DNA of 64,000 nucleotides. Origin: an uncultured Pseudomonadales bacterium. Its GTDB lineage: Bacteria > Patescibacteriota > Microgenomatia > UBA1400 > UBA12028. Under the pieces are notes generated by a model that saw nothing but the letters and a program-made list of their open reading frames with translations, was not told the DNA's origin and searched no databases. The position numbers and the translations under genes were made by a program. Positions within the stretch are counted from its first letter, which is position 1, and every line of letters starts with the position of its first letter. Shown here piece after piece: positions 2,088-60,272 of this stretch. The stretch covers positions 67,701 to 131,700 of the forward strand of contig CAZDWN010000002.1 in the NCBI GenBank assembly GCA_964509365.1, in the 5' to 3' direction.

Positions 2088-2150
2088 TCATTTACTATAC
2101 CAAAGAATAATTCAGTGTCAAATATAAATATATTCATAGGTTCTCATAGG

Positions 2151-3572: not shown

Positions 3573-3589
3573 AGGCTAAAAGTATATCA

Positions 3590-3793: not shown

Positions 3794-3828
3794 AATTTTC
3801 TCCCTACTATTTTGGAAAGATGATACGA

Positions 3829-20504: not shown

Positions 20505-21593
20505 ATGACTCTGCCCGCCAAACATCAGTTCCTTTCATTTTCGCGATTCCTGATGGTCCTCGTGACATTATCTTCGATGTCAATTGGCTTTTTCGTCGCA
20601 GCGACGACTCCCGTGCAAGCGGTTGCCGCTGGTGAGACGTATATGCGCTGTGATCGCATGAAAGCTGCGATCGCACCAGGTGCCTGTCTCGTCGTGTTTA
20701 CAACATCGTCGACGACGGCGACGGAGACATCAATCAAAATTACCTTGGATGCTGAGTGGGTCAGCACCACCAATTTCTCCACGACCGCAGGAAACTACAC
20801 CGTGGCGACATCCGGCACAGGGACGACGCTGCCATCAGGTGTGACGGCGATGCCAGGTATCGCGACCGCGGATCTCGTCTCGGGGAATACGATCCGCTTT
20901 CCGGTCACCGCATTGGCCAATAGTACCAAGTACGGATTTTTTATCACTGGATCTGGACTTATCTCCAATCCGGCTGCATCGACCACGATCTTTCATACGA
21001 TCTTTACGCGCACCGGCTCAGATGCGGCGACAGCAGACACGAAAGATGTCGCGGTGCCAACGATCGCAGACGATCAGATCGTCGTGACTGCCACGGTCTC
21101 TCCATCATTCACCTTTGTCTTCAACAACAATGCGCAAGCGTTGGGTGCTCTTTCGTCCTCTGCGCCTGTCTCTGGCTCTGGGACGACGATCACGATTACG
21201 ACCAATGCTCCAAACGGGTGGTTTGCCTGGGTGAAAGATAGCAATGCTGGTTTGACTTCGGCCAACGCATCCAAGACGATCGCGACGACTGGGACAATCA
21301 ACGCCGCGCCGTCTTCGCTCTCCAACGGTGTAGAAGGATACGTGCTCGATACTGATCTGACGACCGACTTCGCCGCTGGTGGCACCGTCACAATCGATCC
21401 AGAATATTTGGGTGCTGACACAGTCTCTGGAGGTACGTTATCGGCGACCGATTACCAGCCAATTGCATCGTCAGGTGGGACTGCTGGTGGTGACGTCCTG
21501 ACTTTGATACCTCGTGCGTCGATCGCAGGGAATACTCCGGCTGCGAGTGACTATACCGACACCTTGACGGTTGTCGGAGCTGGTCGATTTTAA
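20505..21593 (+). CDS. secreted surface protein, family A (N-terminal RMKAGIAPG domain plus C-terminal ...TPAASDYTDTLTVVGAGRF domain)
   Basis: Signal peptide. Low-complexity T/S/A/G-rich beta-type sequence. 362 aa. Near-identical protein encoded immediately downstream. Confidence 0.5.
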   Translation: MTLPAKHQFLSFSRFLMVLVTLSSMSIGFFVAATTPVQAVAAGETYMRCDRMKAAIAPGACLVVFTTSSTTATETSIKITLDAEWVSTTNFSTTAGNYTVATSGTGTTLPSGVTAMPGIATADLVSGNTIRFPVTALANSTKYGFFITGSGLISNPAASTTIFHTIFTRTGSDAATADTKDVAVPTIADDQIVVTATVSPSFTFVFNNNAQALGALSSSAPVSGSGTTITITTNAPNGWFAWVKDSNAGLTSANASKTIATTGTINAAPSSLSNGVEGYVLDTDLTTDFAAGGTVTIDPEYLGADTVSGGTLSATDYQPIASSGGTAGGDVLTLIPRASIAGNTPAASDYTDTLTVVGAGRF

Positions 21594-21658
21594 AAAATCA
21601 AACAGACTATTGACAGCATACTCATCCATTCGTCATGCTAGCTACAGATATTGCATGT

Positions 21659-22735
21659 ATGAAAAAATTCCTCACTTCAGTTCTTCGTTTGTTTGTCATG
21701 ATCGTCACGTTGTCGTCACTGACAATGGGCTTTTTTGTAGCTGCCACCACTCCAGTAGAGGCTGTCGCCGCGGGTGAGACGTACATGCGCTGTGATCGGA
21801 TGAAAGCAGGGATTGCACCTGGCGCGTGTCTCGTCGTCTTTACGTCATCTTCGACGGCCGCGACTGAGACGACCATCAAGATTACGTTGGACGCTGAGTG
21901 GGTCAGCGCGACAAATTTTTCCACGAGCGCAGCAAACTATACAGTGGCCACTTCTGGGACGGGGACGACGCTCCCTGCTGGTGTCACGGCGATGCCAGGC
22001 ATCACCACAGCAGACAACGTGACTGGCAATACGATTCGTTTCCCAGTCACGAACCTCACGAATAGTACAAAATATGGCTTTTATATCACGGGAACTGGCT
22101 TGCTGCTCAATCCGGCTGCCTCGACCACCATCTATCACACGATCTTTACGCGCACTGGTGCTGATGCGGCGACTGCCGATACGAAAGATGTTGCCGTGCC
22201 GACCATTGCGGATGATCAGATCGTCGTGACCGCCACTGTTTCCCCGTCATTTACGTTTGTTTTTAACAACAATGCACAAGCGTTAGGTGCTCTCTCATCC
22301 TCAGCTCCGGTATCTGGGTCTGGCACGACGATCACGATCACGACCAACGCTCCAAATGGCTGGTTTGCTTGGGTGCGGGACAGCAACGCGGGACTGACGT
22401 CTGCCAACGCCTCGAAAACGATTGCCACAACAGGGACGATCAATGCGGCACCATCTTCGCTCTCCAACGGTGTAGAAGGATACGTACTCGATACGGATCT
22501 GACGACTGACTTTGCTGCCGGTGGCACAGTGACAATCGATCCAGAGTACCTTGGTGCTGATACCGTCTCTGGGGGTACATTATCGGCGACTGATTACCAG
22601 CCGATCGCCTCTTCAGGTGGGACTGCTGGTGGCGATGTGCTTACCTTGATCCCACGCGCCTCGATCGCGGGCAATACTCCTGCTGCCAGTGATTACACTG
22701 ATACCTTGACGGTGGTCGGGGCTGGACGATTCTAA
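21659..22735 (+). CDS. secreted surface protein, family A, tandem paralog
   Basis: Start taken at MKKFLTSVLRLFVMIV (signal peptide). About 92% protein identity to 20505..21593 but only about 80% nucleotide identity, with many synonymous changes. Confidence 0.5.
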   Translation: MKKFLTSVLRLFVMIVTLSSLTMGFFVAATTPVEAVAAGETYMRCDRMKAGIAPGACLVVFTSSSTAATETTIKITLDAEWVSATNFSTSAANYTVATSGTGTTLPAGVTAMPGITTADNVTGNTIRFPVTNLTNSTKYGFYITGTGLLLNPAASTTIYHTIFTRTGADAATADTKDVAVPTIADDQIVVTATVSPSFTFVFNNNAQALGALSSSAPVSGSGTTITITTNAPNGWFAWVRDSNAGLTSANASKTIATTGTINAAPSSLSNGVEGYVLDTDLTTDFAAGGTVTIDPEYLGADTVSGGTLSATDYQPIASSGGTAGGDVLTLIPRASIAGNTPAASDYTDTLTVVGAGRF

Positions 22736-22758
22736 AAAGTCCAGTACACTAAAGTACA

Positions 22759-24927
22759 GTGATGAAGTATATTATTCCCCTTACGATCGGACTTTTTCTT
22801 TTTGCTTTTCCCGTGCGTGCCGTTGAGCTTGAGGCGAGCCAATCCGCCCAAATCCCGATTCTCCCTGCTCCCGACACTCCTATCAATTTGACAGTCTCGC
22901 CCGTGAGTTTGAGTCTAGAGACAGATCCAGGCGTCCCGGTAAAGTCAGAGATCAAAGTGCGCAACAACTCGACGAGTTCTGAACAACTGCAGATCACCAT
23001 CGGTACCTTTGTCGCCGATAGCAACGGTGATAAACCGAAGCTGCTGGATGCAAAACCTGCAGATACCTTTATCCCTTGGCTGTCCGTGGATCCTGAACCA
23101 TTTGTCCTCAATCCTGGTGAGTGGAAGACGATGCCAGTGAGTTTTTCGCCTCCGAAAGAAGCGTCACTTTCCTACTACTACACGATCCAAGTGAGACGGA
23201 CGAGCACGATCAAAGGTGCTGATGGGAAAGCCATCGTCTCTGGTGTCCCGGCGATCCTGGTCCTGGCGACAGTGAACTCTCCAGATTCGCGTCGAGAGTT
23301 ACAGCTCGATTCATTTGTAGCGAAATCTCCGTTTTTGGAGTTTTTGCCTCAGGAGTTTGTGCTATCGATCAAAAATAGTGGCAATGTCCATATCGCACCG
23401 ACTGGAAATATTTTTATCGATGGCCAAGGCAAAAAAGATTTAGCAGTTCTCTCGTTTAACCCTGGATCGAGTGTGATCTTACCGCAGACAACTAGGCAGT
23501 TTCCGATCGTCTGGGATGATGGATTTCCGGTTCGTGTCAAAAATGTGACGGGGGAAAAAGATCAAAAGACTGGTGATGAAAAACAAGCGATGACGCTGGA
23601 ATGGAACCCAGATAAAGTGAAATCACTTCGGTTTGGGAAGTACACTGCGCATTTGATTATGGTGTATGACAATGGCGAGCGAGATGTCCCGATCGAGTCG
23701 ACAGTCTCGTTTTGGGTAATTCCGGTTCGCATCATCATTGCGATCATTGCTGTCCCGACGTTACCGACACTCCTGGTCTATCTGATCATGCGCCGGCGCA
23801 TGCGAAAACTGCAGGCCAAAGCGACAGTTCCGGTGGTCATATTGTGCATCGGAGTGGCATGTCTGTTTGCACCTGCAGTCCATGCACAGGAGCCAGTGGC
23901 CAGTGCGAGTGCGCAAGAGTCGATTCAGATCTTACCTGTCCCTGACACTCCCATTAATTTGACTGTCTCGCCAGTGAGCTTGAGTCTCGAGACCGATCCT
24001 GCGGTGCCAGTAAAATCAGAGATCAAGATTCGAAACAATGCGACCAGTTCCGAGCAGCTTCAGGTGACTGTGGGGACGTTTATCGCTGACGAAAGTGGTG
24101 ACAAACCAAAACTACTCGATCCGAAGCCGACCGATGCTTTTATCTCCTGGATGCATGTCGATCCGGCACCTTTTGTCATCAATCCTGGTGAATGGAAAAC
24201 GATGAGTGTCGAGTTTACCCCACCCAAAGAAGCGTCACTTTCCTATTACTATACGATCATGGTCAAGCGTACGAGCACCGTCAAAGGGGCAGATGGCAAA
24301 GCGGTTGTCTCAGGTGTCCCGGCGATCCTCGTCCTGGCGACCGTCAACTCGCCTGATGCCGTCAGACAACTCGAAGTTGAATCTTTTACTGCCAAGCATG
24401 CATTCCTGGAATACTTGCCAGAGGAGTTTGAAGTCACACTCAAAAATACCGGCAACGTGCACTTGAGTCCGAGTGGAAATATTTTCCTCGATGGCCAAGG
24501 GAAAAAAGACCTCGCCGTGCTCTCGCTCAATCCAGCGTCGAGTCTTGTCCTCCCCGGTACCAGTCGAAAGTTTACGATCTCCTATGACGATGGTTTTCCA
24601 GTTTTCGAGCCGGTCAGCGAAGCCGGGAAAGATGTGCAGAGTGCAAATGGTCAGCAAGAGCGAAAACTCAAATGGGACTTCTCCAAAGCCGATCGATTGC
24701 GCATTGGGAAGTTTACGGCGCACCTACTCATGGTCTATGATAATGGTGAGCGTGATGTCCCCGTAGAATCATATGTTAGTTTTTGGATCATACCTTGGAA
24801 ATTGCTATGCGTCGCTATTCTCATCATGAGCTTTGCGCTCTTCGGTTTGTACTCCATCGTCCGCACCATCGTGCGCGCGGTGAAGGCAAAGAAAAAAGTC
24901 TCGCAATCTCCGCCGCTTGCTTCCTGA
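22759..24927 (+). CDS. fusion of two DUF916/DUF3324-like cell-surface units (each: signal peptide, Ig-like ectodomain, C-terminal TM anchor with basic tail)
   Basis: GTG start. Unit 1 (aa 1-~350) ends in a TM plus RRRMRK and runs in frame, without stop, into the signal peptide of unit 2 (VVILCIGVACLFAPAVHAQEP). The two units are ~70% identical. The ORF ends 30 nt after an A6 tract. Confidence 0.5.
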   Translation: MMKYIIPLTIGLFLFAFPVRAVELEASQSAQIPILPAPDTPINLTVSPVSLSLETDPGVPVKSEIKVRNNSTSSEQLQITIGTFVADSNGDKPKLLDAKPADTFIPWLSVDPEPFVLNPGEWKTMPVSFSPPKEASLSYYYTIQVRRTSTIKGADGKAIVSGVPAILVLATVNSPDSRRELQLDSFVAKSPFLEFLPQEFVLSIKNSGNVHIAPTGNIFIDGQGKKDLAVLSFNPGSSVILPQTTRQFPIVWDDGFPVRVKNVTGEKDQKTGDEKQAMTLEWNPDKVKSLRFGKYTAHLIMVYDNGERDVPIESTVSFWVIPVRIIIAIIAVPTLPTLLVYLIMRRRMRKLQAKATVPVVILCIGVACLFAPAVHAQEPVASASAQESIQILPVPDTPINLTVSPVSLSLETDPAVPVKSEIKIRNNATSSEQLQVTVGTFIADESGDKPKLLDPKPTDAFISWMHVDPAPFVINPGEWKTMSVEFTPPKEASLSYYYTIMVKRTSTVKGADGKAVVSGVPAILVLATVNSPDAVRQLEVESFTAKHAFLEYLPEEFEVTLKNTGNVHLSPSGNIFLDGQGKKDLAVLSLNPASSLVLPGTSRKFTISYDDGFPVFEPVSEAGKDVQSANGQQERKLKWDFSKADRLRIGKFTAHLLMVYDNGERDVPVESYVSFWIIPWKLLCVAILIMSFALFGLYSIVRTIVRAVKAKKKVSQSPPLAS

Positions 24928-25817
24928 TCACTGCAGTGCTGTCACTGTGTGCCCCGCAGTTGGTGCATGCAGCTGAAGGTATCCGTATCCAACCACTGTA
25001 CATGGAGCTCACTCTCTCGGAGACGATTCAATCGGCTTCAGACATGTTGATCCTTGAAAATCAAACAACCTCGACCCAGCGAGTCTCTTTTTCAGCGTTG
25101 GATGTGCATGGTGAAGATGAGCAAGGGAATGTCCAGTTTGCCAGTGGCGTCGGTGGCAAAGATTCTCAAGCGGTTTCCTATGTATCGTTGGCGACTGATT
25201 CGGCTGTGTTGGCTCCTGGTGAGAAATACAGTCTGACGGTAACGGTAAAAAATTCCCAAGAACTTTCGCCTGGCGGACATTACAGCGCTCTCGTTGCTAG
25301 ATTCTTCGATCAAAATGAGACTGCTACTTCCCCACGGGTGCAACCAGCTGTGTCGACGCTCTTACTCACGCGAAAAATTGGAGGCGAGCGCTATCACATT
25401 TCATTGACCTCTATTGCAGGAAGTGAACGATGGATCCACTACGCCCTTCCAAAGCATTTTGAATTGACATTTACAAACGACGGAAACATTCACCTCGTGC
25501 CGCACGGCACGATCAGCGTCGTTGATATGTTTGGGAGACAAGTGGAAAAAGGAATCATCAATGAAGCCTCGACGATCATCTTGCCACAAAATCGCCGTAC
25601 CTTGCAGCAAGAGTTGTATACGGTCTCACGCTCACTGCCACTAATGCTCTACACGGTCAATGTCTCCGGAGCGACCACGCCAGGGGACGTACCGTTCTCT
25701 CGCCAGTTCTCCTTTATCTACGTCTCTTCGATCGGGCTGGTCGTCTTGGCGCTTTTCGTGATCTTGATTGTACTCGTCATCTGGAAGTTGAGACGTCGCC
25801 GACGGAGCCACTTATGA
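24783..25817 (+). CDS. third DUF916/DUF3324-like surface unit; probably the frameshifted continuation of 22759..24927
   Basis: Signal peptide (KEKSLAISAACFLITAVLSLCAPQLVHAAEG) lies in the -1 frame relative to the upstream ORF, directly after the A6 tract 24892-24897. C-terminal TM plus RRRRRSHL. First in-frame ATG at 24807 precedes the signal peptide awkwardly. Confidence 0.4.
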   Translation: MDHTLEIAMRRYSHHELCALRFVLHRPHHRARGEGKEKSLAISAACFLITAVLSLCAPQLVHAAEGIRIQPLYMELTLSETIQSASDMLILENQTTSTQRVSFSALDVHGEDEQGNVQFASGVGGKDSQAVSYVSLATDSAVLAPGEKYSLTVTVKNSQELSPGGHYSALVARFFDQNETATSPRVQPAVSTLLLTRKIGGERYHISLTSIAGSERWIHYALPKHFELTFTNDGNIHLVPHGTISVVDMFGRQVEKGIINEASTIILPQNRRTLQQELYTVSRSLPLMLYTVNVSGATTPGDVPFSRQFSFIYVSSIGLVVLALFVILIVLVIWKLRRRRRSHL

Positions 25818-26470
25818 TCGCACTCAATCGAAAAAAGAAACTCAGCATGTTCGCCATCGCAGGGGGGATCGTCCTCATTCTGCTTGGTGTCGCTTGGTTT
25901 CGCATGTATCGTGATGCATTTGGGAAGATCCAGACAGATTTGTCAAAACGCTCCCAGGAATTTATAGATGCAGAGCGGGCAAAATCGCAAAGTAGTTGGA
26001 AAGAAATTCACTTGGGGACTCCAGTACCGCAAGCTGGCGATGTCGGGACGAGATTTTCAACTCCGTGTTTTACGATTGCACTGCCGTTTACGATTCGCGA
26101 TCAGCATATCGACAACAAAGATGGCTCATGTACCTTTGCGGTTCGCGTCCTCTTCCCTCCAGCACGGTTAGTAGTTTGGGCTCGCCCACTTCGCATCACT
26201 TTATCCGAAGATACGGCGGTGACGCTGCGTCGCTCAAAACGAGATGTGTACACCGAGTCACAGTTGAGTACTTCGACAGTTCCTGATGTCGTGCAGTTTC
26301 GCTCAAGCGATGAATTGATTCTGTTTTTTACCAAAGGAACGATGGAGTATTCCTTTGCATTTACCAATGTCGTCAGTGAAAAGCTCAAAGCTTCCGATTT
26401 GCAAGCGATGCTCGATGGCTTTACCCCGTTCACACAACCTACTCTAGCTCCGAAACCACTCAAGCCGTAA
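25814..26470 (+). CDS. membrane-anchored hypothetical protein
   Basis: ATGA overlap with the upstream stop. N-terminal TM (FAIAGGIVLILLGVAWF). 218 aa. No motif recognised. Confidence 0.4.
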   Translation: MIALNRKKKLSMFAIAGGIVLILLGVAWFRMYRDAFGKIQTDLSKRSQEFIDAERAKSQSSWKEIHLGTPVPQAGDVGTRFSTPCFTIALPFTIRDQHIDNKDGSCTFAVRVLFPPARLVVWARPLRITLSEDTAVTLRRSKRDVYTESQLSTSTVPDVVQFRSSDELILFFTKGTMEYSFAFTNVVSEKLKASDLQAMLDGFTPFTQPTLAPKPLKP

Positions 26471-26528
26471 AGTTCTATTGTCAGAATGTGAGAACGGGGT
26501 TTACTATTACCTTGGCAGTCCAGAAATT

Positions 26529-27581
26529 ATGAAACGAAAACAGCTCTCACTTTTTTTGATGTTCTTCCTCTTCGCGATGCCCGCCTCTACGACGTATGAG
26601 ATGCACGATTTCGGCTTTGGTGCTGGTGGGAGTGGCGTCTCTGACTCTACGACCTATTCAGGCATTGGAATCGTTGGTGAGCAAGGCGGATCGCAGCAAA
26701 ATATTGGGTCGACGTATAACCTTGGTCCTGGCCTCATCTTTACGCAGCAGACCAATGTCCCTGGTGCGCCTACATTTACCAATCCAGCCAGCTACTACAA
26801 CAAATTGAAATTTGTATTGGACACCGGAAGCAATCCTACAGATACGCTCTATGCGATTGCCATCTCGACAGACAACTTTACCACGACCAATTTTATTCAA
26901 GCTGACAATACCATTGGCTCCAGTGCTGTGTATCAGACGTATTCTGCCTGGGGTGGTGGGACGGGTGCAAACGTCATTGGACTTGCGGTCTCCACGACGT
27001 ACAAGATCAAAGTCAAAGCGGTCCAGACCAAATATACCGAGACAGAATATAGTGCCGAGGCGTCAGCGACGACGAGCGCTCCTACATTGACGTATGATAT
27101 CGACGTCTCGCCGACCGACAATGATACCAGTGCTCCCTATATCGTCGCCTTTGGCACACTCAATGTCGGCAGCGTGACCACGGCCTCAGACAAAGTCTGG
27201 GTCGACGTCGATACCAATGCCGAGAATGGCGCGGCCGTCTATGTCTATGATGGATCCGCGGGCTTAGTGAGTGCAAATGCGAGCGCGACGATCACGTCTG
27301 CGACTGCAGATCTTTCGTCAGCATCCACAGGGTATGGATTACAGATTGCTTCCGTTGCACAAAGTAGTGGTGGCCCCCTAGCAAAGGTCTCGCCATTTAA
27401 TGGCAGTGGAGAAAATGTCGGCGCGATTACGACGGCATCGACGCAGATATTCTCGACGACCTCACTTCCGATCACTGCTGGACGAGGCTCGGTGTATGTC
27501 AAAGCGCGTGCGAGCTCCTCGACGCCAGCCGCGAGTGATTACTCTGATACCATCACCATGATTGCAAGTGGCTCATTTTAA
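26529..27581 (+). CDS. secreted surface protein sharing the family-A C-terminal domain (...STPAASDYSDTITMIASGSF)
   Basis: Start at MKRKQLSLFLMFFLFAMPA (signal peptide). The C-terminal ~170 aa align with the C-terminal domain of 20505 and 21659 (NGAAVYVYDGSAGLVSANASATI vs NGWFAWVKDSNAGLTSANASKTI). The last 31 nt are duplicated at 28252. Confidence 0.5.
   Translation: MKRKQLSLFLMFFLFAMPASTTYEMHDFGFGAGGSGVSDSTTYSGIGIVGEQGGSQQNIGSTYNLGPGLIFTQQTNVPGAPTFTNPASYYNKLKFVLDTGSNPTDTLYAIAISTDNFTTTNFIQADNTIGSSAVYQTYSAWGGGTGANVIGLAVSTTYKIKVKAVQTKYTETEYSAEASATTSAPTLTYDIDVSPTDNDTSAPYIVAFGTLNVGSVTTASDKVWVDVDTNAENGAAVYVYDGSAGLVSANASATITSATADLSSASTGYGLQIASVAQSSGGPLAKVSPFNGSGENVGAITTASTQIFSTTSLPITAGRGSVYVKARASSSTPAASDYSDTITMIASGSF
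27551..27581. repeat. 31-bp perfect direct repeat, copy 1 (CATCACCATGATTGCAAGTGGCTCATTTTAA)
   Basis: Identical 31-mer recurs at 28252-28282. Flanking bases differ on both sides. The TA cassette lies in the 670 bp between the copies. Confidence 0.9.
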
Positions 27582-27611
27582 GTTTCCCTATGCTTGCTTC
27601 AATGATACAAT

Positions 27612-27908
27612 TTGTGTATGACAAATATCATCAAAGACTCTCGAGCTGATGTGGAGCAAGTGTGCAAAGATGCGGGTATTACGTACCTTGCTGTTTTTGG
27701 GTCACAGGCACGTGGGGATCAAAAGTCCGAGAGTGATGTAGATCTGCTGGTAGAATTTAAAGAGGCACCTGGCCTTATTGGCTTTATCCGAACCAAGCAG
27801 CGATTTGAGGATATCTTTGATCGTAAAGTAGATTTGGTAACGCGAAAAGGCCTCTCACCATATATTAAACCGTACATCCAAAAGGACTTACAGATATTGT
27901 ATGGATAA
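27612..27908 (+). CDS. mntA: MntA-type minimal nucleotidyltransferase (antitoxin of a HepT/MntA type VII TA pair)
   Basis: GSxxRGxxxxxSDxD motif (AVFGSQARGDQKSESDVDLLVEF). 98 aa. Confidence 0.8.
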   Translation: MCMTNIIKDSRADVEQVCKDAGITYLAVFGSQARGDQKSESDVDLLVEFKEAPGLIGFIRTKQRFEDIFDRKVDLVTRKGLSPYIKPYIQKDLQILYG

Positions 27909-28239
27909 ATCTCCGTCTGTCTTCTTACTCCACATTCGTGATGCAATCACTCAAATTGAAGTCTATGTTGACGGATATACGTATGCACAGTTCGTGGTAG
28001 ATAAGAAGACTCAAGACGCGGTGATACGTCAACTTGAAGTGATAGGTGAAGCTACTACAAACCTCGAAGATGTATTTAAGCGTGAAAATGCAACTATCCC
28101 CTGGCGAGAAATATCGGATTTTCGAAATGTACTCTCACACGAATATTGGGATGTAGATCTTGATATTGTATGGAACGCTGCCCACGAAGATGTCCGAACA
28201 CTCAAAGATGCCCTGCTCCCTCTAATTGAAACTAACTAG
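27901..28239 (+). CDS. hepT: HepT-like HEPN-domain (DUF86) toxin
   Basis: R-x4-HxY HEPN motif (FRNVLSHEYWDVD). 112 aa. 8-nt overlap with mntA (ATGGATAA). Confidence 0.8.
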   Translation: MDKSPSVFLLHIRDAITQIEVYVDGYTYAQFVVDKKTQDAVIRQLEVIGEATTNLEDVFKRENATIPWREISDFRNVLSHEYWDVDLDIVWNAAHEDVRTLKDALLPLIETN

Positions 28240-28251
28240 TTTCCTTTGGAT

Positions 28252-28282
28252 CATCACCATGATTGCAAGTGGCTCATTTTAA
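28252..28282. repeat. 31-bp perfect direct repeat, copy 2
   Basis: Identical to 27551-27581. Lies 13 nt after the hepT stop. Contains the last 29 nt (…KMSHLQSW*) of the minus-strand 941-aa gene. Confidence 0.9.
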
Positions 28283-30995
28283 AAGACCACAGATGCTTCC
28301 AGTACGTCCATACTCCGATACACAGGAGAGTGAGGACGAAGAAACTTCCAAATAGCGCGAATTTATTTGCGAGGAGCAGATACAGCTCGCAGAGCAGCGC
28401 CAGCACGATAAAAAATTCTAGTCCAAAGTCGATCAACAGATATGCCGCTTCATCTAGCAGTTCGTGCGCTTTGAGCCCCATGGGATGAGTGTTGGGCCGG
28501 ATGGTCAATGCATGAGAAACATCATAACCCGATGGTACACATTCGGAGAGCGCATCAAACCCTTTCTTGTCGACCGAAAAACAGAGCGACTGCGTGCTCG
28601 TCGGCACTAGTAGTGCAAATTCGCCAAGCATATTTGTCGTCGCAAATCGATGGACTGCATTCTTCTCAGATTCTTTGAGCGTCACTCGTGCACCAGCGAT
28701 GGCTTCCCCGGTGACACTATTATGGATGGTCCCATGGAAAATCTGATGAGTATGGACTGACTTCATGTACGAGAGGTGCTCCAGGAAGGCTGGAATCAGC
28801 TCGATGACGGGGATACCAAGTCGCAGTGAGACAGAGGTAACCAAGCAAAAGAGAATAAAAAGCAGCATGCACAAAAAGAACAGATCCCAAAATCGTGGTG
28901 AGTCAGTAAGAGTCTGCAAAAATGTCTCGCCGGCTTCGACGATGTTTTGTCCAATATTGGTGTAGTACGAAGTAAACAAAGCGAGTGAAAATGGAAGTCT
29001 CTTGAGCGTCAGCGTCGGATAGGGTATGACAGTATCAAAGGAAATTGTAACTCTAATTGTCTGAGTCGCATAGCCGATCGATCGCAGTTCGATCTCATAC
29101 TGTCCAGCTGAGAGATTAAATGGCAATCGACCTCGATGATCAGAGAGCAAGAGACCTTTCACTGAGCTGCCTCCTGGTCGGATCGGGAGATAGATTCTCG
29201 CTGACTTGTCATAGCGCTTCACAGAAGCATGCACATTTTCGATGGGGTTCCCTTTCTCATCTTGGATGATGAGCGGTTGAATAAGCCGGATCGTTGCAAT
29301 GGGTTTTTCTTCCACGGATCCAGTTTTTGACTCGACGCGAAGCATCAATAGATAGGTGTCAGTTTGTTCAGGTGTCCTCATCTTGCCGACGAACTTATCT
29401 GGAGCGATTTGCATCAATGTGGCGATCGCCAGATCTGGCTCGCTGGTGGCATCGTCGGTGAGTCCGAGTATTTTTGCAGGTCGGAGCGAAGTGACTGCTG
29501 ACTTCACGCGGTCCCCGTGTGAGATGGAAAGTTGCAGATCGATCAGCTGATTGGCGACGATGCTCAGTCGTTGGCCATTTTGATCCGATTGCTCTCCATA
29601 AATTGGACTTCCATCTTGCAGCAAGACAAATGACTCAGTGATCGCTTTTGGCATCAAGGCATCGGTTTTGGCAGTCTTAAACGTAAAGATATCCGACGAG
29701 GTGATTTTCCTGCCATCTTGATACACGTCAAACACGACATAGTAGTGAGTGTCATCTTTTAGGCCCGGGATATTTATTTCGTGCACCGTTAGAGGTGCGG
29801 TTGTTGAAAAACTTCCAGTGAGAGCCTTGGGAGCGAGGCCATATCTGACGGTCAGATTGGCAGGGGCACTCAAACGGACTGAAAAAATCGCTGAGGTATC
29901 AAATAATGATCCCAGCGCAATACTGGTAAACGGATGTGAACCCAACGGCGCTGATACTGTTGGACTGCCAGTGCTTGTGACTGCAATCGGCGTGGGAGTC
30001 GGTGTGTTCGTGCTCGTATTCACGTAGAGATACGTGATTGTTTGCGTCGCGACTTCACTTTGTGCTGGTGCGATGATCTGGGCGTGGATGGGGATCACCA
30101 CTTTTTTTTCTCCAGTGTACTGCTCATTTGTTTTGAGAGTGAAGTGAACCGATTGATTTGGCAAATTCGCCGGATAGCTGGCAATACTCCAAGTGATCGT
30201 TCGATTCACCGTATCGATGACTGGAGGAGTGTTCCCATAGGCGTTTGTAGCGCTACCGATGACATACTCCAAGATGTCTTGGCTCGCGGTGGTTTGCCCT
30301 TCTGGCGTCCCGAGGTCCCACGATGCTTGGAGAGTCATTGGTCCAGTCACCATTGCGTCAGTCCCATAGGTGAACGTATAGCCAAGCTCGGTATCTTGGC
30401 GATTGAGCTCATTATGCTGATCAGGAGTGAGTGTGGCCGTGAGATTTGAGGTCGCCGGTGGGACGATCGCATTGATGACGATTTGATCGTTTGCGGTGGT
30501 CTCGGTCCAGACGTTTTGTGTATCGATGACGGTACTGCCTGCATCTTGAGTGCTGACGACCGTCAAGTATTCCGCCGCCGACCGATTGAGAGGAAACCCC
30601 CCAGAAATAAAAAATGCATAGGTGGTCCCAGGGCTTAGATCGCCGATGGCAAATGTCAGTGTGTGCCCCGTGATACTACTCGCTGTGAACCCAGTCAATG
30701 GAAGTGGAGTCAAGCCTGAGGGGATGCCGACGGTCGTCGTGGTGTAGTCTGATGCAGTGGTCGAAAAATGAGTTCCAGCAGTCCAGCGGCTATCGAGCTG
30801 AAGGACAAGTTTGGATTCCGTCCCGATGCTCGCTGGATTGACCTCTACTAGTATGTCACCAGGAGCGATTCCCGCTTTGGTTCGATCGGGTCGGATCAAG
30901 ACTTCGGTAAAGTTTCCTGCGTGGACAGTTTGGATGAAAAAAGACCCACTGAAGATGAGTAAAAAGCAAGCCAGAATCCGCGTCAAAAATCGCAT
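28254..30995 (-). CDS. large secreted/membrane surface protein: family-A N-terminal domain, CarboxypepD_reg-like beta-sandwich repeats, C-terminal multi-TM region
   Basis: Start at MRFLTRILACFLLIFSGSFF. N-terminal 190 aa (RPDRTKAGIAPGDILVEV...TANDQIVINAIVPP) is homologous to the N-terminus of 20505 and 21659. YEIELRSIGYATQTIRVTIS resembles the CarboxypepD_reg fold. 3-4 C-terminal TM helices. Confidence 0.5.
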   Translation of the reverse strand: MRFLTRILACFLLIFSGSFFIQTVHAGNFTEVLIRPDRTKAGIAPGDILVEVNPASIGTESKLVLQLDSRWTAGTHFSTTASDYTTTTVGIPSGLTPLPLTGFTASSITGHTLTFAIGDLSPGTTYAFFISGGFPLNRSAAEYLTVVSTQDAGSTVIDTQNVWTETTANDQIVINAIVPPATSNLTATLTPDQHNELNRQDTELGYTFTYGTDAMVTGPMTLQASWDLGTPEGQTTASQDILEYVIGSATNAYGNTPPVIDTVNRTITWSIASYPANLPNQSVHFTLKTNEQYTGEKKVVIPIHAQIIAPAQSEVATQTITYLYVNTSTNTPTPTPIAVTSTGSPTVSAPLGSHPFTSIALGSLFDTSAIFSVRLSAPANLTVRYGLAPKALTGSFSTTAPLTVHEINIPGLKDDTHYYVVFDVYQDGRKITSSDIFTFKTAKTDALMPKAITESFVLLQDGSPIYGEQSDQNGQRLSIVANQLIDLQLSISHGDRVKSAVTSLRPAKILGLTDDATSEPDLAIATLMQIAPDKFVGKMRTPEQTDTYLLMLRVESKTGSVEEKPIATIRLIQPLIIQDEKGNPIENVHASVKRYDKSARIYLPIRPGGSSVKGLLLSDHRGRLPFNLSAGQYEIELRSIGYATQTIRVTISFDTVIPYPTLTLKRLPFSLALFTSYYTNIGQNIVEAGETFLQTLTDSPRFWDLFFLCMLLFILFCLVTSVSLRLGIPVIELIPAFLEHLSYMKSVHTHQIFHGTIHNSVTGEAIAGARVTLKESEKNAVHRFATTNMLGEFALLVPTSTQSLCFSVDKKGFDALSECVPSGYDVSHALTIRPNTHPMGLKAHELLDEAAYLLIDFGLEFFIVLALLCELYLLLANKFALFGSFFVLTLLCIGVWTYWKHLWSFKMSHLQSW

Positions 30996-31057
30996 AGATT
31001 CATCATAGATGAATTTGCACAAAAGCAAAACAAGAAGACTGGTATTTTCGTCTTTAT

Positions 31058-34000
31058 TTGGCGTATTCACACGCCTCAAATGTTGCTACAGTTGAGATTG
31101 TGTCAAACACTTTTCGCAGACACATTGCTACCCTTCTATTACTGACAGGGGTCTTTTTCTTATGGAGACCTACTGCGGTTTTTGCTGCCACCGGAACCTT
31201 CAAACAGATCAATTTCCAGGGGAAAGTGGTCAATAAGACCACAGGAACGAATGTCGCCGACGGATCGTACACATTTGTGTTTAGTTTGTATACTGTCTCA
31301 TCGGCAGGCTCAAATATTTGGACCGAGTCAAAGAGTGTGACAGTCACCAATGGTATTTTTCAGACGTTTTTGGGCGATACAACGTCTCTTCCAGGATCGG
31401 TTGATTTCAATACTGACAATTTGTACCTGGGGATCAACTTCAATGGCGATGGTGAGATGAGTCCTCGGGTCCGATTTACCGCTGTTCCGCAAGCGATGAA
31501 TGCGCTCAAAGTCGCAGGTCTCACGGTCACAGATACGACTGGTACGTTGACGATCCCAAATGGCACGACGATCGCCTTCTCTGGGACAAACAATTTGACC
31601 TTTACGACCACGGGATCGACTGGCTTGACGTTGCCGACGACTGGTACCTTGGCGACCCTGGCCGGTTCAGAAGTCCTGACCAACAAGACCATTGGCTCGA
31701 CTGGTTTGGTCTTCTCTGGCGCCTCGACTGATATCGATACTGCAGCAGCCGAAGGGTTGGTGTTGCAGGGTCGCGCGGCATCTTCCTTCAACACGACGAG
31801 TGGTGCGATCTCGTTTCAAGCTGCTGGCTCGGGCACAATCTCGACTGTACAGATCGGTGCAGGTGGCGCTGGATCGACGACTCCCGATTACTTGGCATTA
31901 GATGTGAAAAGTGATACTGGAGATCCTGCAGGTGGAGCCGAAGGCTACATTTACTACAACACGTTTGATAACAAATTCCGCTGCTACCAAAACTCTGGCT
32001 GGACTGATTGTGTCGGCAGTGGAGTCACAGGGACTGGGACAGCTGGTACATTACCGATTTACACTGGTGCTGGTGCGACTATTGGCGATTCTTGGCTATC
32101 GCAAGCCAGTACCACTTTGACCCTGAGTACCGCGACGATTATCAGTGATGCGAGTCTCGCAACACTGACGTCCTCGACGGCATTGAGTCTCAATCCAAAT
32201 ACAGGGACGAGTTACACGTTGGATTCTACCGCCACAACTTTGAGTTTGTTCGGGACGGCAACAGCCCTGACATTTGGAAACTCCGCTTCGACGTTGGCAG
32301 TTGGTGCGTCTGGTGGCTTGACGGTCACTCCAGGTGGAGATATGACGTTTTCTGAAGCCCACAACAAAGGCTTCACGATCTCTGGGACGACCGCGACAAA
32401 TCGGACGACAGACCTCATGACCATCACACAAGCATCTGGTGCAGGCACTGGCACTGGAAATTTATTGCAATTGATAAATAATGACACCGATTCGACTGCA
32501 GCCCTCTTGGATATCAATCAAGGGACGGCTGGTGGTACAGGTATCAACTTCCCATTGGGTATCAGTACCGGTAATGCGATTAACATTTTTAGTACCATTA
32601 CGACTGGAAATGCGATCGCCATTCCTGCGATCGCGACCGTCACATCAGGCTCGGCCATCAACCTCAGTGGAGGTGTTACCGGAGCAGTAGCTGCCATGAC
32701 TGGAAGTTACATCAGTGTCTCACCGACTCGATCGAAGACATCTGGTGCGACGCTGATATCTGATACTGGTCATTTCCTCAGTCTCGTGCGTAGCAACTCA
32801 AATACTATTGCCGGTGGGACACTCGATATGCAAGGTGACGTGGCCGTGATCTCGTCCACATGTTCGCAAAGTGCGGGCACCTGCAGTGACTCATCACATA
32901 TTTTGTCACTGGCACAAAGTTACACTGCTGCTACAGGAAATGTCTTTGACGTGACCAATGCCGGCACGGGCAAAGGATTATTCCTCACTTCTTCTTCGAC
33001 GGGAAATTTGATGGAGCTTGATAGCTCAGGAGCAGTGACTACTCCAAAGGGCATCGTGATTGCCGCGACGAATGGCGCTGGTGTGATTACTGACGCACTG
33101 GATGTCTCTGATGCTGAGATCGTGAACGGTATCAATCTGGGAGCTAACAATATTTATTCTGTCGGCAATGTGAATTTTGCCGGAACTGCTACTGGTACAT
33201 CAGCAACAGGAATTGTACTTCCAGTAAAAACAGACTCTGGAGATCCGACCGTCACGCAAGCAAATGGAGAAATGTACTACAACAGTAATAGTGGCAAATT
33301 CCGCTGCTATCAAGCTTCCGCTTGGGTAGATTGTATAAACACGAGTAGTGGCATCACTGGGACGGGGACCGCTGGCACGCTGCCAATCTATACTGGTGCT
33401 GGTGCCACGATTGGAGATTCTTGGCTCTCGCAAGCAAGTACCACGTTGACACTCAGTACTGCTACTGCGATTAGCGACTCCGTCCTAGCGACATTGACTT
33501 CATCAACTGCATTAAGTCTCAATCCAAATACAGGAACCAGTTACACGCTCGATTCCACTGCGACGACACTCAATCTTTTCGGGACGGCAACAGCCCTGAC
33601 ATTTGGCAATTCCGCTTCGACGTTGGCAGTTGGCGCTTCTGGTGGATTGACTGTGACTCCAGGAGGTAATTTGACGATTGCTGAAGCTGCGACCAAAGGG
33701 ACCACGTTTACATCTGACTTGACCAGCGCAGGTCGCACGACAGATGTGGTGACGATTTCTCAGGCCAATGATGCGACTAATAATAGTACTGGAAATTTAC
33801 TTCAACTCACAAACTCAGATACCAGCTCAACCACTGCATTGCTTGATTTGAATCAAACTGCCCCTGCCGGCGGAATGATTAATATACCCGCAGGTATGTC
33901 CACTGGGACAGCGATCAATTTTGGAATGGGCATAACTACTGGGAAAATAATGCAGGTAATTGCTGCTTCCGTGACTTCGGGCAATGTGCTGGGATCATCT

Positions 34001-37000
34001 GGTGGCGACAATATTTCTGGAACATTAACAGCATTTTCCGGAAAGTACATTAGTTTGTCTCCGGTAAGAACTCACGTTGGAAACACGACCATTACTGAGT
34101 CTGGAAATTTTTTGAGTTTGGCAAGAAACGATGTGCAGGTGACAGGAACAGGCACTATCGCAATTACAGGAGACATGGCACTTCTGACATCTACATGCAG
34201 TCAGAGTGGTGGTTCATGTACTGACTCCTCACATATTTTGAACTTGCAGCAAAACTATGCTGCGGCGAATGGAAACGTATTCGAGCTCACCAATGCTGGG
34301 ACTGGCAAAGGAGTCTCACTCACTTCTTCATCGACCGGTACATTGATGGAATTGGATTCCTCTGGAGCGGTGACGACGGCAAAAGGATTGGTTATCGCCG
34401 CGACCAATGGCGCTGGAGTAATCACGGATGCGCTCGATGTCAGTGATGCAGAGATCGTCAATGGTATCAATGTGGGAGCGAACAATATCTATTCTGTCGG
34501 AAATGTGAATTTTGCTGGGACAGCGACTGGTACATCAGCAACAGGAATTGTACTTCCAGTAAAAACAGATTCTGGCGATCCGACCGTCACGCAAGCAAAT
34601 GGAGAAATGTACTACAACAGCAATAGTGGCAAATTTAGATGCTACCAAGCATCTGCATGGACTGATTGTATCGGGAGTGGAAGTGGTATTACTGGGACTG
34701 GGACCGCTGGGACATTACCGATTTATACGGGTGCTGGTGCGACGATTGGTGATTCTTGGTTGTCCCAGGCCTCGACGACGTTGACTCTCAGTACTGCGAC
34801 CATCATCAGTGATGCTTCACTCGCCACGTTGACGACTTCGACAGCATTTAATCTCAATCCAAATACTGGTACCAGTTATACGCTTGATTCCACAGCCACG
34901 ACTCTCAATCTCTTCGGTACAGCGACTGCGCTGACGTTCGGAAATTCAGCGACGACACTTGCATTCGGTGCCTCTGGAGGCACGACCATAACGCCTGGCG
35001 GAACCTTGACTATCGCAGAAGCGGCAACAAAGGGCACTATTCTGACTTCTACACTTACTAGTGGAGCCAGAAGTACATCTGTCTTCAGTATTACGCAAGC
35101 CAATGATGGGACCAATGACTTCGACTCTAGCACCACTGGATTGGTAAACCTAGTCAACGATGACCTTGGTTCTGCCTCTGCAATCGTATGGATCGATCAA
35201 AATGGGACTTCAAGCAGTGGTGATGAATCTGGTATCCACATCTCTGCTCCAAATACTGGCTCAGCTACCGGTATGGAGATCAATGTCGGAGATAATGCAT
35301 CAAACAACTATTCCGGAGGTGGTGGTCTGATTATTGATGACGCGTATGAAATGACGTCAGGCTCAGGGATAAGAATTGGAACTAGTACAGGCATTGGCTC
35401 TGGTACGACTCAGACTTTCTCGGGTAATTACATGGATATCTCTACTGAACTCGGTGCAGGTACGTTCTCACAGAGCTCTGGCACCAGAACTGAAAGCGGT
35501 CACTATCTCAACGTAGGGAGAGCGTACACCACGAGTGGCACAGGTACAGTCACAATTACGGGTGATTTAGCTTCCTTGGCTGCCACCTATACCGAGACCG
35601 CCGGTACCATTACTGATACATCAAATATCCTTTCATTGGCTCAGAACTGTGATGCGACGTCTACGGATTGTACAGGTGCAGTAATTGATTTGACCAACTT
35701 CGGTACTGGTGCAGCGCTTGATCTGGCGCAAACGAATACATCAGGGACACAAACAAATGGAATCTTTTTCAATCGAAACGGTACGAGTGGCACGACGACA
35801 AATGGAATTAACATCACCAATACCGCCGGCACACTTACGTATGGATTGACTTTTACGGGTACGACCGCGATTGGTACAGACATCAAACTACAAGGTGGGG
35901 AAACCATTAGCAACTCTGTTGCTGATACCATAGTGCTCGCCTCTGATGCCACGAATGGTGCTGGCGTAGCGAGACTTCCAGTGAAGACGGATACTGGAGA
36001 CCCAACGCTTAACGTCGAGGGGAACATTTACTACAATACCTTCGACAATAAATTCCGATGCTATCAAAACGCTGCCTGGACCGACTGTATCGGCTCTGGT
36101 GGAGCGACTGCTTTTGATACGATCAGTGATCCGACTGGGACCGGTGCGATCGCGATGGGCAACAACGCTCAGACACTTGATTTCATCTCTCCCTCGACTG
36201 CGACCGCGATGGATGGTTTGACCGTCACGTATACGAATGGCTCCGCGACTGACGTGACCACTCAACGCGGTTTTGTCGTAGCGAATCTCAATGATGCAGC
36301 GTCTACGGGTACTCTGGAATCTTTGGCTGTGATCGAAAACCGCGATATCAATGAGACATTAGGCAATGCACTATTGATCGATCAAGCTGGCGCGGGTACG
36401 ACGACCAATGCCCTTAAGATCAGTAATTCTGGAGGAAATATCACGACGGGTATCGCCATCGTCGACGGTGCTGGCGGCACTCTGACGACGGGCATCTCAG
36501 TCACGGGTGCGATGACCACCGGATTGACGATAGGCAGTGGGTCGGACGCGATCACCAGCGGCATCGTCCTTGGATCGACGGGTATTTCGACAGATATCAC
36601 CTTACAAAATGGAGAGAAGATCGACAATGATACCGACGGATATATCCAGTTTTCCGTCGGATCAAACTCCGGTCTTGTGATCAATGATGGCGGTCAGTCA
36701 TTTGGATTGGCGACCGCTGCAAGTGATGGCGGCGTATTTGGAGGTGCCGCGTATTATGGATTCAAAGACGCAGCCAACTCAGTCCAGTACTTTCTCTTGA
36801 CGCAAGCCGCGACCGCGAATACGGGGACGACGAGTCAAGCTGCACTCACATTTGCGACTCCAGTGAATACGACGGGTACAAACGTAAACGAAGGACTTGC
36901 GATCGCGACGACGATCGGCAATGCGAGTGCCGGGGCGAACACCGCCAACATCATCTCGATCGCGGCGCTTACTGGCGATGACCAAGTGACACTTAACGGA

Positions 37001-60207: not shown

Positions 60208-60272
60208 GCGAGAATTATACGCAACTGAGTTGCGTAATGTCTAGAGCCGAAAAAAATGATAGCATCAATGCT

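What the first reader, a model, noticed from the sequence alone, without database searches (positions are those of the whole stretch)
27551..28282. HepT/MntA toxin-antitoxin cassette bracketed by a perfect 31-bp direct repeat between two convergent surface-protein genes
The 31-mer CATCACCATGATTGCAAGTGGCTCATTTTAA occurs at 27551-27581 and again at 28252-28282, and the flanking bases differ on both sides. Copy 1 supplies the last 10 codons and stop of the plus-strand gene (…ITMIASGSF*). Copy 2 supplies, in antisense, the last 9 codons and stop of the minus-strand 941-aa gene (…KMSHLQSW*). The 670 bp between the copies hold only mntA-hepT and look clearly more AT-rich than the neighbours. The simplest reading is that the two convergent genes once overlapped tail-to-tail across a single copy of this 31-mer. 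Insertion of the TA cassette duplicated it, so both ORFs kept intact 3' ends. A 31-bp duplication is unusually long for a transposase target-site duplication. It suggests site-specific or short-homology integration of a self-contained TA cassette.
Basis: seen in the sequence. Interest (0 to 1): 0.7.

Follow-up and report, generated by a model that had tools for sequence, protein, structure and literature searches.

The report
Toxin-antitoxin cassette inserted into overlapping gene tails
A small, self-contained HepT/MntA toxin-antitoxin gene pair was inserted exactly where two converging genes used to share their last 29 bases, and a 31-base duplication of that shared stretch left both genes intact; it is a clean but single and mechanistically unresolved footprint of how such cassettes move.

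Summary
The exact 31-mer lies at 27551-27581 and 28252-28282 (0 expected by chance). It brackets 670 bp that hold only a promoter, mntA and hepT, both with intact catalytic motifs. The core interpretation is supported. Three related Patescibacteria-like lineages (75-84% identical neighbour protein) carry the empty site: one copy of the 31-mer homologue, no TA, and the two convergent genes overlapping by 29 bp (26 bp in one). The outer flanks of the window's repeat match the empty-site flanks; the inner flanks do not. The duplication runs from 2 nt beyond one stop codon to the last base of the other, the minimum that keeps both ORFs whole. The same cassette family (about 78% identical) sits at five or more unrelated loci. 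DNA homology starts at its own -35 box, exactly where repeat copy 1 ends. I found no transposase, integrase, inverted ends, attC-like or dif-like features, and no flanking repeats around the other cassettes. The best reading is one illegitimate insertion with a target-derived duplication, kept by selection. The TA is an ordinary new family member; the footprint is unusual but a single case.

The parts
26529..27581 (+). Gene A: 350-aa secreted protein of unknown function. The mechanical ORF starts at TTG 26478; homologues are 350 aa. It ends ...DTITMIASGSF*.
   Evidence: family of more than 1000 proteins, no Pfam hit. The C-terminus is conserved across relatives.
27551..27581 (+). Direct repeat copy 1. 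It carries the last 9 codons and the TAA stop of gene A. Its antisense frame (the former tail of gene B) is now unused.
27582..28251 (+). Inserted 670-bp cassette: own promoter, mntA, hepT and a 12-nt tail. GC is 0.42, against 0.479 for the window.
   Evidence: Absent from the empty sites L001, L003, L004 and L089. GC.
27583..27611 (+). Cassette promoter (inferred): -35-like TTTCCC (27583-27588), 17-nt spacer, extended -10 TGATACAAT (27603-27611).
   Evidence: Conserved as (A)GTTTCyy-N17-TGATACAAT (TAGAAT in L093) upstream of mntA in five cassettes at different loci. DNA homology between the cassettes begins here. The generic promoter scan did not call it.
27618..27908 (+). mntA: 96-aa minimal nucleotidyltransferase antitoxin with an intact GSX10DXD motif (GS-QARGDQKSES-DVD).
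   Evidence: PF01909 E=3.7e-13. NCBIfam MntA_antitoxin scores 48 bits, below the 60-bit cut-off. PDB 1WOT E=2.5e-12. Motif defined in PMC7641770.
27901..28239 (+). hepT: 112-aa HEPN RNase toxin with an intact RX4HXY motif (R-NVLS-H-E-Y). Its start overlaps the mntA stop by 8 bp.
   Evidence: PF01934 E=5.5e-27. NCBIfam HepT_toxin scores 48.6 bits, below the cut-off. Closest relatives are 75-79% identical.
28240..28251 (+). 12-nt cassette tail TTTCCTTTGGAT. With the G of the TAG stop it repeats the cassette's first bases: AGTTTCC lies at 27581-27587 and at 28239-28245. It also forms a palindrome GAAACTA-AC-TAGTTTC around the hepT stop.
   Evidence: I14. The chance of a shared 7-mer in two 18-nt ends is about 0.008. 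Not conserved in the other cassettes. Unexplained.
28252..28282 (+). Direct repeat copy 2. In antisense it carries the last 8 codons and the TGA stop (28254-28256) of gene B. Its sense frame (a copy of gene A's tail) is unused.
28254..31079 (-). Gene B: large secreted/membrane protein. The ORF is 941 aa; the likely start is ATG 30995, giving 913 aa. It has CarboxypepD_reg and Fn3-like domains and C-terminal transmembrane helices, and ends ...WSFKMSHLQSW*.
   Evidence: Orthologues in L001 (918 aa), L003 and L090.

Best explanation
In the lineage of this genome, probably a Patescibacteria/CPR bacterium, a horizontally circulating HepT/MntA (type VII) toxin-antitoxin cassette was inserted once into the 29-bp stretch that genes A and B shared tail-to-tail. 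The cassette consists of its own promoter, mntA, hepT and 12 nt.

The insertion copied 31 bp of the host's own sequence, namely the overlap plus 2 nt, to both sides of the cassette. Copy 1 now finishes gene A and copy 2 finishes gene B.

I infer a non-site-specific, illegitimate event. Either foreign DNA was captured at a staggered break whose overhangs were filled in, or a replication template switch returned 31 nt upstream of where it left. Selection then acted as a filter. Any insertion into this overlap that duplicated less than stop-to-stop would have truncated one gene. Long duplications are presumably rare, so the survivor is close to the minimum sufficient length.

Once in place the cassette is expected to work as a standard type VII TA. 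HepT is an RX4HXY RNase and MntA neutralises it by AMPylation. The 31-bp direct repeats offer a route to precise loss, and toxin release on loss would select against that loss.

Shown: the repeat, the TA identity and motifs, the empty sites, the cassette boundaries, the multiple unrelated locations of the cassette family, and the absence of mobility genes. Inferred: the molecular mechanism of the duplication, the role of selection, and TA activity. The confidence given (0.6) is for the whole statement including the inferred mechanism; the shown part alone I would put above 0.9.
For: - The repeat is exact and non-random.
- Empty sites with a 29-bp (or 26-bp) overlap and one repeat copy occur in L001/L002/L009, L003/L004 and L089. 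Outer flanks are homologous to them and inner flanks are not.
- All relatives nearest to the window lack the TA. By neighbour-protein identity the window groups with L003 and L001 in a near-trichotomy (84.3, 81.7 and 83.7%), with TA-less outgroups L089, L090 and L010. One gain is therefore more parsimonious than repeated loss.
- The duplication spans position -2 of B's stop to the last base of A's stop.
- The two copies are identical to each other but differ at 3 of 31 positions from each relative, as expected for an in-situ copy.
- The cassette family (HepT 75-79% identical; mntA of the same 96-aa length and visibly similar sequence) lies at five or more unrelated loci. These are next to recA, tRNA-Pro, ksgA-like, uvrD and methyltransferase genes. 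DNA homology starts at the -35 box and ends at the hepT stop.
- L005, L007 and L093 have no flanking repeat of 10 bp or more, and none of the five loci has a 31-mer-like sequence.
- No transposase or integrase was found in the cassette or among the 29 window ORFs scanned against Pfam. No terminal inverted repeats. No Rfam hit. No phage or plasmid match.
- The GSX10DXD and RX4HXY motifs are intact.
- In about 870 kb of related DNA no other isolated repeat of this type was found.
Against: - This is a single event, and neither a donor nor a same-species empty site was found.
- The mechanism cannot be read from one footprint.
- The near-exact stop-to-stop extent could also point to a more specific process than break-and-fill.
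- The cassette's two inner ends share AGTTTCC (p about 0.008), which a random capture does not predict.
- I do not know whether this organism has end-joining enzymes.
- TA activity is untested, and both proteins score below the NCBIfam equivalog cut-offs.
Confidence: 0.6

Rival explanations
1. Campbell-type integration. A circular form of the cassette that already carried one copy of the 31-mer recombined with the chromosomal 31-mer. The agent would be a recombinase acting in trans or RecA acting on short homology. This gives attL/attR-like direct repeats, and the unit can excise again as a 701-bp circle.
For: The structure (repeat, cargo, repeat) with no recombinase inside is what Xer-exploiting elements and other trans-mobilised elements leave (my own knowledge). 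31 bp is near the minimum length for RecA-dependent exchange (my own knowledge). Both gene tails are restored automatically. The repeat is exact.
Against: - The 31-mer is host coding sequence, conserved because of gene A's C-terminus.
- A circle carrying it could only come from a genome that already had the insertion, so this model does not explain the origin.
- No other cassette of the family is associated with such a sequence.
- There is no dif-like sequence, no GC-skew switch and no hairpin.
- No integrase was seen among the 29 window ORFs scanned.
Confidence: 0.15
2. Two steps. First a 31-bp tandem duplication uncoupled the two overlapping genes. Later the cassette landed in the only neutral spot, the junction between the two copies.
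For: This also yields the observed structure. Tail arrangements of A and B vary among relatives (29-bp, 26-bp, 4-bp and 0-bp overlaps, and a 76-bp gap), so this junction does evolve.
Against: - It needs two rare events at one spot.
- No relative shows the intermediate of two adjacent copies without cargo.
- There is no microhomology at the ends of the duplicated unit that would favour slippage.
- The second step still needs an insertion mechanism.
Confidence: 0.1
3. The TA-bearing state is ancestral, and the relatives lost the cassette by recombination between the 31-bp repeats. On this view the overlap is a product of the deletion.
For: Deletion between direct repeats is easy and would leave exactly the empty-site structure (my own knowledge).
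Against: - L003, L001, L089, L090 and L010 all lack the TA. The window is not an outgroup to L003 and L001, so several independent precise losses would be needed.
- The repeat itself would still have to arise by duplication of a gene tail that encodes both proteins on opposite strands.
- The cassette's closest relatives lie at unrelated loci.
Confidence: 0.05
4. Assembly artefact. The contig mis-threads a repeat node, for example an empty chromosome plus a separate small circle, or a k-mer-length duplication made by the assembler.
For: 31 is a common k-mer size. The window comes from a metagenome-assembled contig (one NCBI contig of 305 kb). Real assembler-made duplicates exist in related MAGs: 55-bp copies around 100 N in L011 and L084.
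Against: - There is no N in the window.
- The stretch between the copies is a complete, intact two-gene operon with promoter.
- Both junctions must exist in reads for any graph path to use them, so the cassette is physically joined to the 31-mer on both sides in any case.
- The artefacts I saw look different: the duplicated ends abut a gap.
Confidence: 0.05
5. A true transposase-made target-site duplication. The cassette would be a non-autonomous element moved in trans by an enzyme that makes long staggered cuts, as IS1634 and IS1549 do.
For: IS1634 and IS1549 make variable duplications of 8-514 bp (PMC2266710).
Against: - There are no terminal inverted repeats.
- No transposase was seen in the window.
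- No family-wide flanking duplications.
- Homology between cassettes ends at functional boundaries (promoter and stop codon), not at conserved element ends.
Confidence: 0.03

Closest known systems
HepT/MntA (HEPN/MNT) type VII toxin-antitoxin, e.g. Shewanella oneidensis SO_3166/SO_3165 (PMC7641770)
   Same: PF01909 antitoxin upstream of PF01934 toxin, with overlapping genes. GSX10DXD and RX4HXY motifs are intact. The proteins are small (96 and 112 aa).
   Different: Both proteins score below the NCBIfam equivalog cut-offs (48 against 60 bits). HepT gave no phmmer hit in the PDB sequence search. Activity is untested. The host is a Patescibacteria-like genome.
Chromosomal TA 'islets' inserted between conserved genes without mobility genes, e.g. 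ccdO157 between folA and apaH in E. coli (from my own knowledge, not checked here)
   Same: A bare TA operon is present in some lineages and absent from the same intergenic or junction site in relatives. No recombinase is nearby.
   Different: Here the target was coding sequence shared by two genes, and the insertion is flanked by a perfect 31-bp duplication that rescues both ORFs.
Integrative elements that duplicate the 3' end of their target gene (tRNA-gene islands, attL/attR direct repeats)
   Same: Direct repeats of tens of bp flank the insert. The repeat restores the 3' end of the interrupted gene.
   Different: There is no integrase. The element is only 670 bp. The repeat is not found with the cassette elsewhere. 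It restores two genes on opposite strands.
IS1634 / IS1549 long variable target duplications (PMC2266710)
   Same: The duplication is much longer than the usual 2-14 bp.
   Different: There is no transposase and there are no inverted-repeat ends.
Xer-exploiting integrative elements (IMEX) and pdif modules (from my own knowledge)
   Same: Cargo without its own recombinase, bounded by sites of about 28-31 bp. TA modules are common pdif cargo.
   Different: The 31-mer shows no resemblance to dif by eye (not formally searched). It lies in coding sequence and not at a GC-skew switch. pdif sites flank modules in inverted orientation.
Integron gene cassettes / CALIN arrays
   Same: A compact cassette of one or two genes. 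A relative of the cassette (L095) sits in an array with a repeated intergenic element.
   Different: There is no attC-like hairpin, no GTTRRRY core, and no such element in the window. Integron recombination does not duplicate the target.

Membership tests
HepT/MntA type VII TA | Toxin with HEPN/DUF86 domain (PF01934) | tested here: met
   E=5.5e-27, 94 bits against a cut-off of 23.5.
HepT/MntA type VII TA | Antitoxin with minimal nucleotidyltransferase domain (PF01909), encoded directly upstream | tested here: met
   E=3.7e-13, 50 bits against a cut-off of 21. The genes overlap by 8 bp.
HepT/MntA type VII TA | RX4HXY motif in the toxin and GSX10DXD motif in the antitoxin (PMC7641770) | tested here: met
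   RNVLSHEY and GS-QARGDQKSES-DVD in the translations. Motif definition.
HepT/MntA type VII TA | NCBIfam equivalog score (NF047751 / NF047752) | tested here: not met
   48.6 and 48.1 bits against a cut-off of 60. This is a family member by Pfam and motifs, but not an equivalog by NCBI's threshold.
HepT/MntA type VII TA | Toxicity of HepT and neutralisation by AMPylation | not testable with these tools
   Needs an experiment.
Insertion sequence / MITE / transposon | Transposase gene, or terminal inverted repeats recognised in trans | tested here: not met
   The cassette has only two ORFs, both TA. The cassette ends carry no inverted repeat; instead they share a short direct AGTTTCC.
Insertion sequence / MITE / transposon | Family-typical target duplication at every copy | tested here: not met
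   No flanking repeat of 10 bp or more in L005, L007 and L093. The 12-bp one in L095 belongs to a dispersed intergenic element.
Site-specific integrative element (att recombination) | Integrase/recombinase in the element or nearby | tested here: not met
   None in the cassette. None among the 29 window ORFs scanned against Pfam. The rest of the genome was not available.
Site-specific integrative element (att recombination) | The same att sequence associated with the element at independent sites or in independent genomes | tested here: not met
   No 31-mer-like sequence (up to 9 mismatches) in five other cassette loci.
IMEX / dif-site integration | Repeat is a dif-like XerC/D site at the replication terminus | tested here: not met
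   No GC-skew switch at about 28 kb. No resemblance to dif consensus by eye (not formally searched). The site is coding sequence in all relatives.
Integron gene cassette | attC imperfect hairpin at the 3' end and GTTRRRY core sites | tested here: not met
   Only 12 nt follow hepT. Folding z-scores are -0.9 to +0.1. GTTTCCC does not fit GTTRRRY.

The most novel reading that the evidence does not exclude
HepT/MntA cassettes of this clade are moved around Patescibacteria genomes by an unrecognised host-encoded or trans-acting process. That process would cut the target with long staggers of about 30 nt, perhaps preferentially where convergent transcription units collide. The short AGTTTCC shared by both inner ends of the cassette would mark the cassette's own processing or joining site. 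The window would then be the first fresh footprint of that process, and the 701-bp unit could excise and re-insert.
Probability: 0.07. Interest if true: 0.75.

Novelty: new member of a known kind. Interest (0 to 1): 0.4.

Why it matters
How bare chromosomal toxin-antitoxin operons spread without any mobility gene is still poorly understood. This locus offers a matched filled site and empty site with base-pair resolution. It defines the moved unit (from the -35 box to 12 nt past the toxin stop). It shows that 31 bp of the target was duplicated, and that the duplication rescued two genes that shared their tails. It is also a concrete example of how a tail-to-tail gene overlap can be resolved in one step in a very compact genome. 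As a single event it sets up a testable survey, namely cataloguing filled and empty pairs for this cassette clade, rather than establishing a new mechanism.

Tried and rejected
- Exact-protein look-ups of the window's HepT and gene A gave no contig on record. Cluster look-up gave no accession or name.
- The metagenome scan with gene A returned only two distant loci and no same-species site.
- dif/IMEX idea: rejected. There is no GC-skew switch and the repeat is coding sequence.
- attC/integron idea: rejected for the window. There is no hairpin, no core site and no Rfam hit.
- Phage or plasmid vector: no HepT relative in viral contigs and no DNA match in phage or plasmid collections.
- Insertion hotspot idea: the 230-270-aa genes that lie between A and B in distant relatives are homologues of a window gene at 52.5-53.2 kb. 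That is gene-order change, not cargo.
- Recurrence: a scan of about 870 kb of related loci for isolated exact repeats of 18 bp or more, 150-5000 bp apart, found only paralogue blocks, a palindromic element in L043 and two scaffolding artefacts.
- The 18-nt repeat at 13079/13586 lies inside the glucose-6-phosphate dehydrogenase gene (NILTFR motif twice) and is irrelevant.
- A first tblastn gave MntA 37% identity to the relatives. This was my frame error (query started at 27620); the correct start is 27618 and the proteins are clearly close relatives.
- Literature searches found no description of a TA insertion that duplicates an overlap of convergent genes.
Full report
**Observation.** The 31-mer CATCACCATGATTGCAAGTGGCTCATTTTAA occurs exactly twice in the 64-kb window, at 27551-27581 and 28252-28282. 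There is no further match at up to three mismatches and none in 100 shuffles. The bases next to it differ on both sides.

The 670 bp between the copies hold two overlapping genes:
- mntA, 27618-27908, PF01909, E=4e-13.
- hepT, 27901-28239, PF01934, E=5e-27.

Both carry the motifs that define the type VII pair in PMC7641770: GS-X10-DXD in MntA and R-X4-H-X-Y in HepT. NCBIfam recognises both, but below its equivalog cut-offs. GC is 0.42 in the insert against 0.479 for the window.

Copy 1 ends gene A, a 350-aa secreted protein ending ...ITMIASGSF*. Copy 2, read in antisense, ends gene B, a secreted/membrane protein of about 913-941 aa ending ...KMSHLQSW*.

**Empty sites.** A protein search with gene A found more than 1000 relatives. 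I recovered the DNA around the closest ones.
- L001/L002/L009 (82% identical): gene A at 661-1713 (+) and the gene B orthologue at 1685-4441 (-) overlap by 29 bp across a single CATTACCATGATTGCAAGTGGTTCATTTTAG.
- L003/L004 (84%): the same, with GATCACCATGATTGCAAGTGGGTCATTCTAA.
- L089 (75%): a 26-bp overlap.
- L090 (76%): a 76-bp gap.
- More distant relatives: overlaps of 0-4 bp, or other genes in between.

None has a TA at this junction. The 60 nt left of copy 1 and right of copy 2 are 63-73% identical to the flanks of the empty sites. The inner flanks are at 20-37%, near the level expected for unrelated sequence. Gene B's C-terminus is conserved as KMNHLQSW*/RMTHLQSW*, so the overlap is real coding sequence on both strands.

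By gene-A identity the window, L003 and L001 form a near-trichotomy (84.3, 81.7 and 83.7%), with TA-less outgroups. One gain in the window's branch is therefore the parsimonious history.

**Extent of the duplication.** Gene B's stop (TCA on the + strand) occupies positions 3-5 of the 31-mer, and gene A's TAA occupies positions 29-31. The duplication is therefore the 29-bp overlap plus 2 nt, almost exactly the minimum that leaves both ORFs complete.

The two copies are identical to each other but differ at 3 of 31 positions from each relative. This argues that the second copy was made from this genome's own sequence and was not imported with the cassette from another lineage.

**The cassette.** HepT's closest relatives are only 75-79% identical. 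The same 96-aa plus 112-aa operon lies in at least five unrelated contexts in Patescibacteria-type contigs:
- after recA/cutA and before uvrD (L005);
- after recA and before an EamA transporter (L093);
- 66 bp after tRNA-Pro (L007);
- between a ksgA-like gene and an acetyltransferase (L095);
- between two methyltransferase-type genes (a JGI contig for which no DNA was available).

Alignment of the DNA shows that homology begins at (A)GTTTC, the -35 box of a conserved promoter (TTTCyy-N17-TGATACAAT; TAGAAT in L093). It ends at the hepT stop. In the window this left boundary falls immediately after the last base of repeat copy 1.

The moved unit is thus a minimal, self-expressing TA operon. It is low in GC in every host examined (0.36-0.42 against 0.455-0.48), so the GC dip marks the cassette but does not date the event.

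**Tests for a dedicated mobility mechanism.** All came back negative.
- The cassette ends carry no inverted repeat.
- There is no third ORF in the cassette.
- No transposase or integrase was found among the 29 window ORFs scanned; these are ordinary housekeeping, surface and signalling genes.
- There is no tRNA in the window and no Rfam family.
- Neither the 31-mer nor the cassette end has significant hairpin potential.
- There is no GC-skew switch that would suggest a dif site.
- There are no relatives in viral contigs, phage records or plasmids.
- L005, L007 and L093 have no flanking repeat of 10 bp or more, and none of the five loci contains anything like the 31-mer.
- The 12-bp repeat around the L095 cassette is a dispersed intergenic element of that contig.
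- A scan of about 870 kb of related loci found no second isolated repeat of this type.

**Artefact check.** The window has no N. Related MAGs do contain assembler-made duplicates, but those are 55-bp copies abutting a 100-N gap (L011 and L084), a different picture.

An assembler cannot invent the two junctions. At worst it mis-threaded an empty chromosome plus a 701-bp circle, and that would still mean the cassette is joined to the 31-mer on both sides. Only the reads can settle this.

**Mechanism.** The shown facts are a lineage-specific insertion of a self-contained TA operon and a target-derived 31-bp duplication. The mechanism itself is inferred.
- I favour a single illegitimate event: capture at a staggered break followed by fill-in, or a template switch that re-entered 31 nt upstream. 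Selection then filtered the outcome. Only duplications of at least 29 bp in the right register keep both genes, and if long duplications are rare the survivor should sit near the minimum, as observed.
- Campbell-type integration of a circle carrying the 31-mer explains maintenance and possible re-excision. It does not explain the origin, because the 31-mer is host coding sequence.
- A two-step route (tandem duplication, then insertion) needs two rare events, and no intermediate was seen.
- Ancestral TA with repeated loss is unparsimonious.
- A transposase with long staggered cuts exists in nature (IS1634/IS1549, 8-514 bp; PMC2266710), but nothing here resembles such an element.

One detail remains unexplained. 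Both inner ends of the cassette carry AGTTTCC (27581-27587 and 28239-28245; chance about 0.008), and the right one is half of a palindrome around the hepT stop. It could be a remnant of a tandem or circular donor, or an operator half-site.

**Comparison and verdict.** The TA is a new but ordinary member of the HepT/MntA family. The insertion resembles known TA 'islets' found between conserved genes. It differs in hitting a shared coding tail and in leaving a perfect 31-bp duplication that uncouples two overlapping genes. I found no description of this in the searched literature.

It is a neat, well-documented footprint, but a single case without an established mechanism. I rate interest as moderate (0.4) and novelty as a new member of a known kind. 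I give about 7% to the more novel reading that a dedicated long-stagger insertion process moves these cassettes.

Noticed in passing
L095:1598-4097 (also L096, and L093:3355-3415): An element of about 55-90 nt (CTATAGGATTTTCAATCTGAAAACAAGTTACAACTTGGTTCCATAGATCCGAC...) occurs four times in direct orientation. One copy lies in each spacer of a run of small accessory genes: mntA-hepT, acetyltransferase, cupin and NUDIX. A diverged copy follows hepT in L093 although the neighbours differ. It looks like a gene-cassette array, but it has no attC-like fold or core site.
   Followed up: partly
window 27581-27587 and 28239-28245: Both inner ends of the inserted cassette carry AGTTTCC (chance about 0.008). 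The right copy is half of the palindrome GAAACTA-AC-TAGTTTC centred on the hepT stop, and the left copy is the conserved -35 box. The meaning is unknown; a donor junction or an operator are possibilities.
   Followed up: partly
window 31058-39820 (+): A 2920-aa ORF next to gene B has three internal repeats of about 1.33 kb (32018, 33347 and 34682; 77-80% identical). It has almost no Pfam signal. It is a giant repetitive surface protein typical of CPR genomes.
   Followed up: no
window 20505-27581; L023, L027, L045, L053, L057, L068, L080, L085: Gene A belongs to a family that occurs as tandem paralogues. In the window, 20560-20859 and 21702-22001 are 80% identical. In several relatives, neighbouring copies share 100%-identical stretches of about 0.9 kb, which suggests recent duplication or gene conversion.
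   Followed up: no
L011:6000-6209 and L084:2394-2603: Exact 55-bp duplicates lie on either side of a 100-N gap. These are scaffolding artefacts in public MAGs, and they were useful as a picture of what an assembler-made repeat looks like.
   Followed up: yes
window 13079-13096 and 13586-13603: An exact 18-nt direct repeat lies inside the glucose-6-phosphate dehydrogenase gene. It encodes the NILTFR motif twice and is not a mobile-element footprint.
   Followed up: yes
window 17940-17951 and 61356-61364: There are other convergent gene pairs whose tails overlap: 12 bp for 17589-17951(+) with 17940-18305(-), and 9 bp for 60198-61364(+) with 61356-61868(-). Tail-to-tail overlap is common in this compact genome, so insertions of the kind studied here would often need a rescuing duplication.
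   Followed up: no
L009, L010, L013-L017 and other loci: Many TPA metagenome-assembled genomes carrying this gene family are labelled Pseudomonadales, Gammaproteobacteria or Bdellovibrionales. Their named neighbours in the same family are labelled Saccharibacteria, Moranbacteria, WWE3, Woesebacteria and the like. The former labels look unreliable.
   Followed up: no
window 384-2087 (-): A type I restriction-modification methylase (HsdM_N plus N6_Mtase) carries an N-terminal MerR-type HTH, an unusual fusion.
   Followed up: no
L043:559-670 and 2087-2199: A palindromic element of 28-29 nt (GTCATCCCAGCGAAAGCTGGGACCCAGT and its complement) occurs as pairs 1528 bp apart. It looks REP- or MITE-like.
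   Followed up: no
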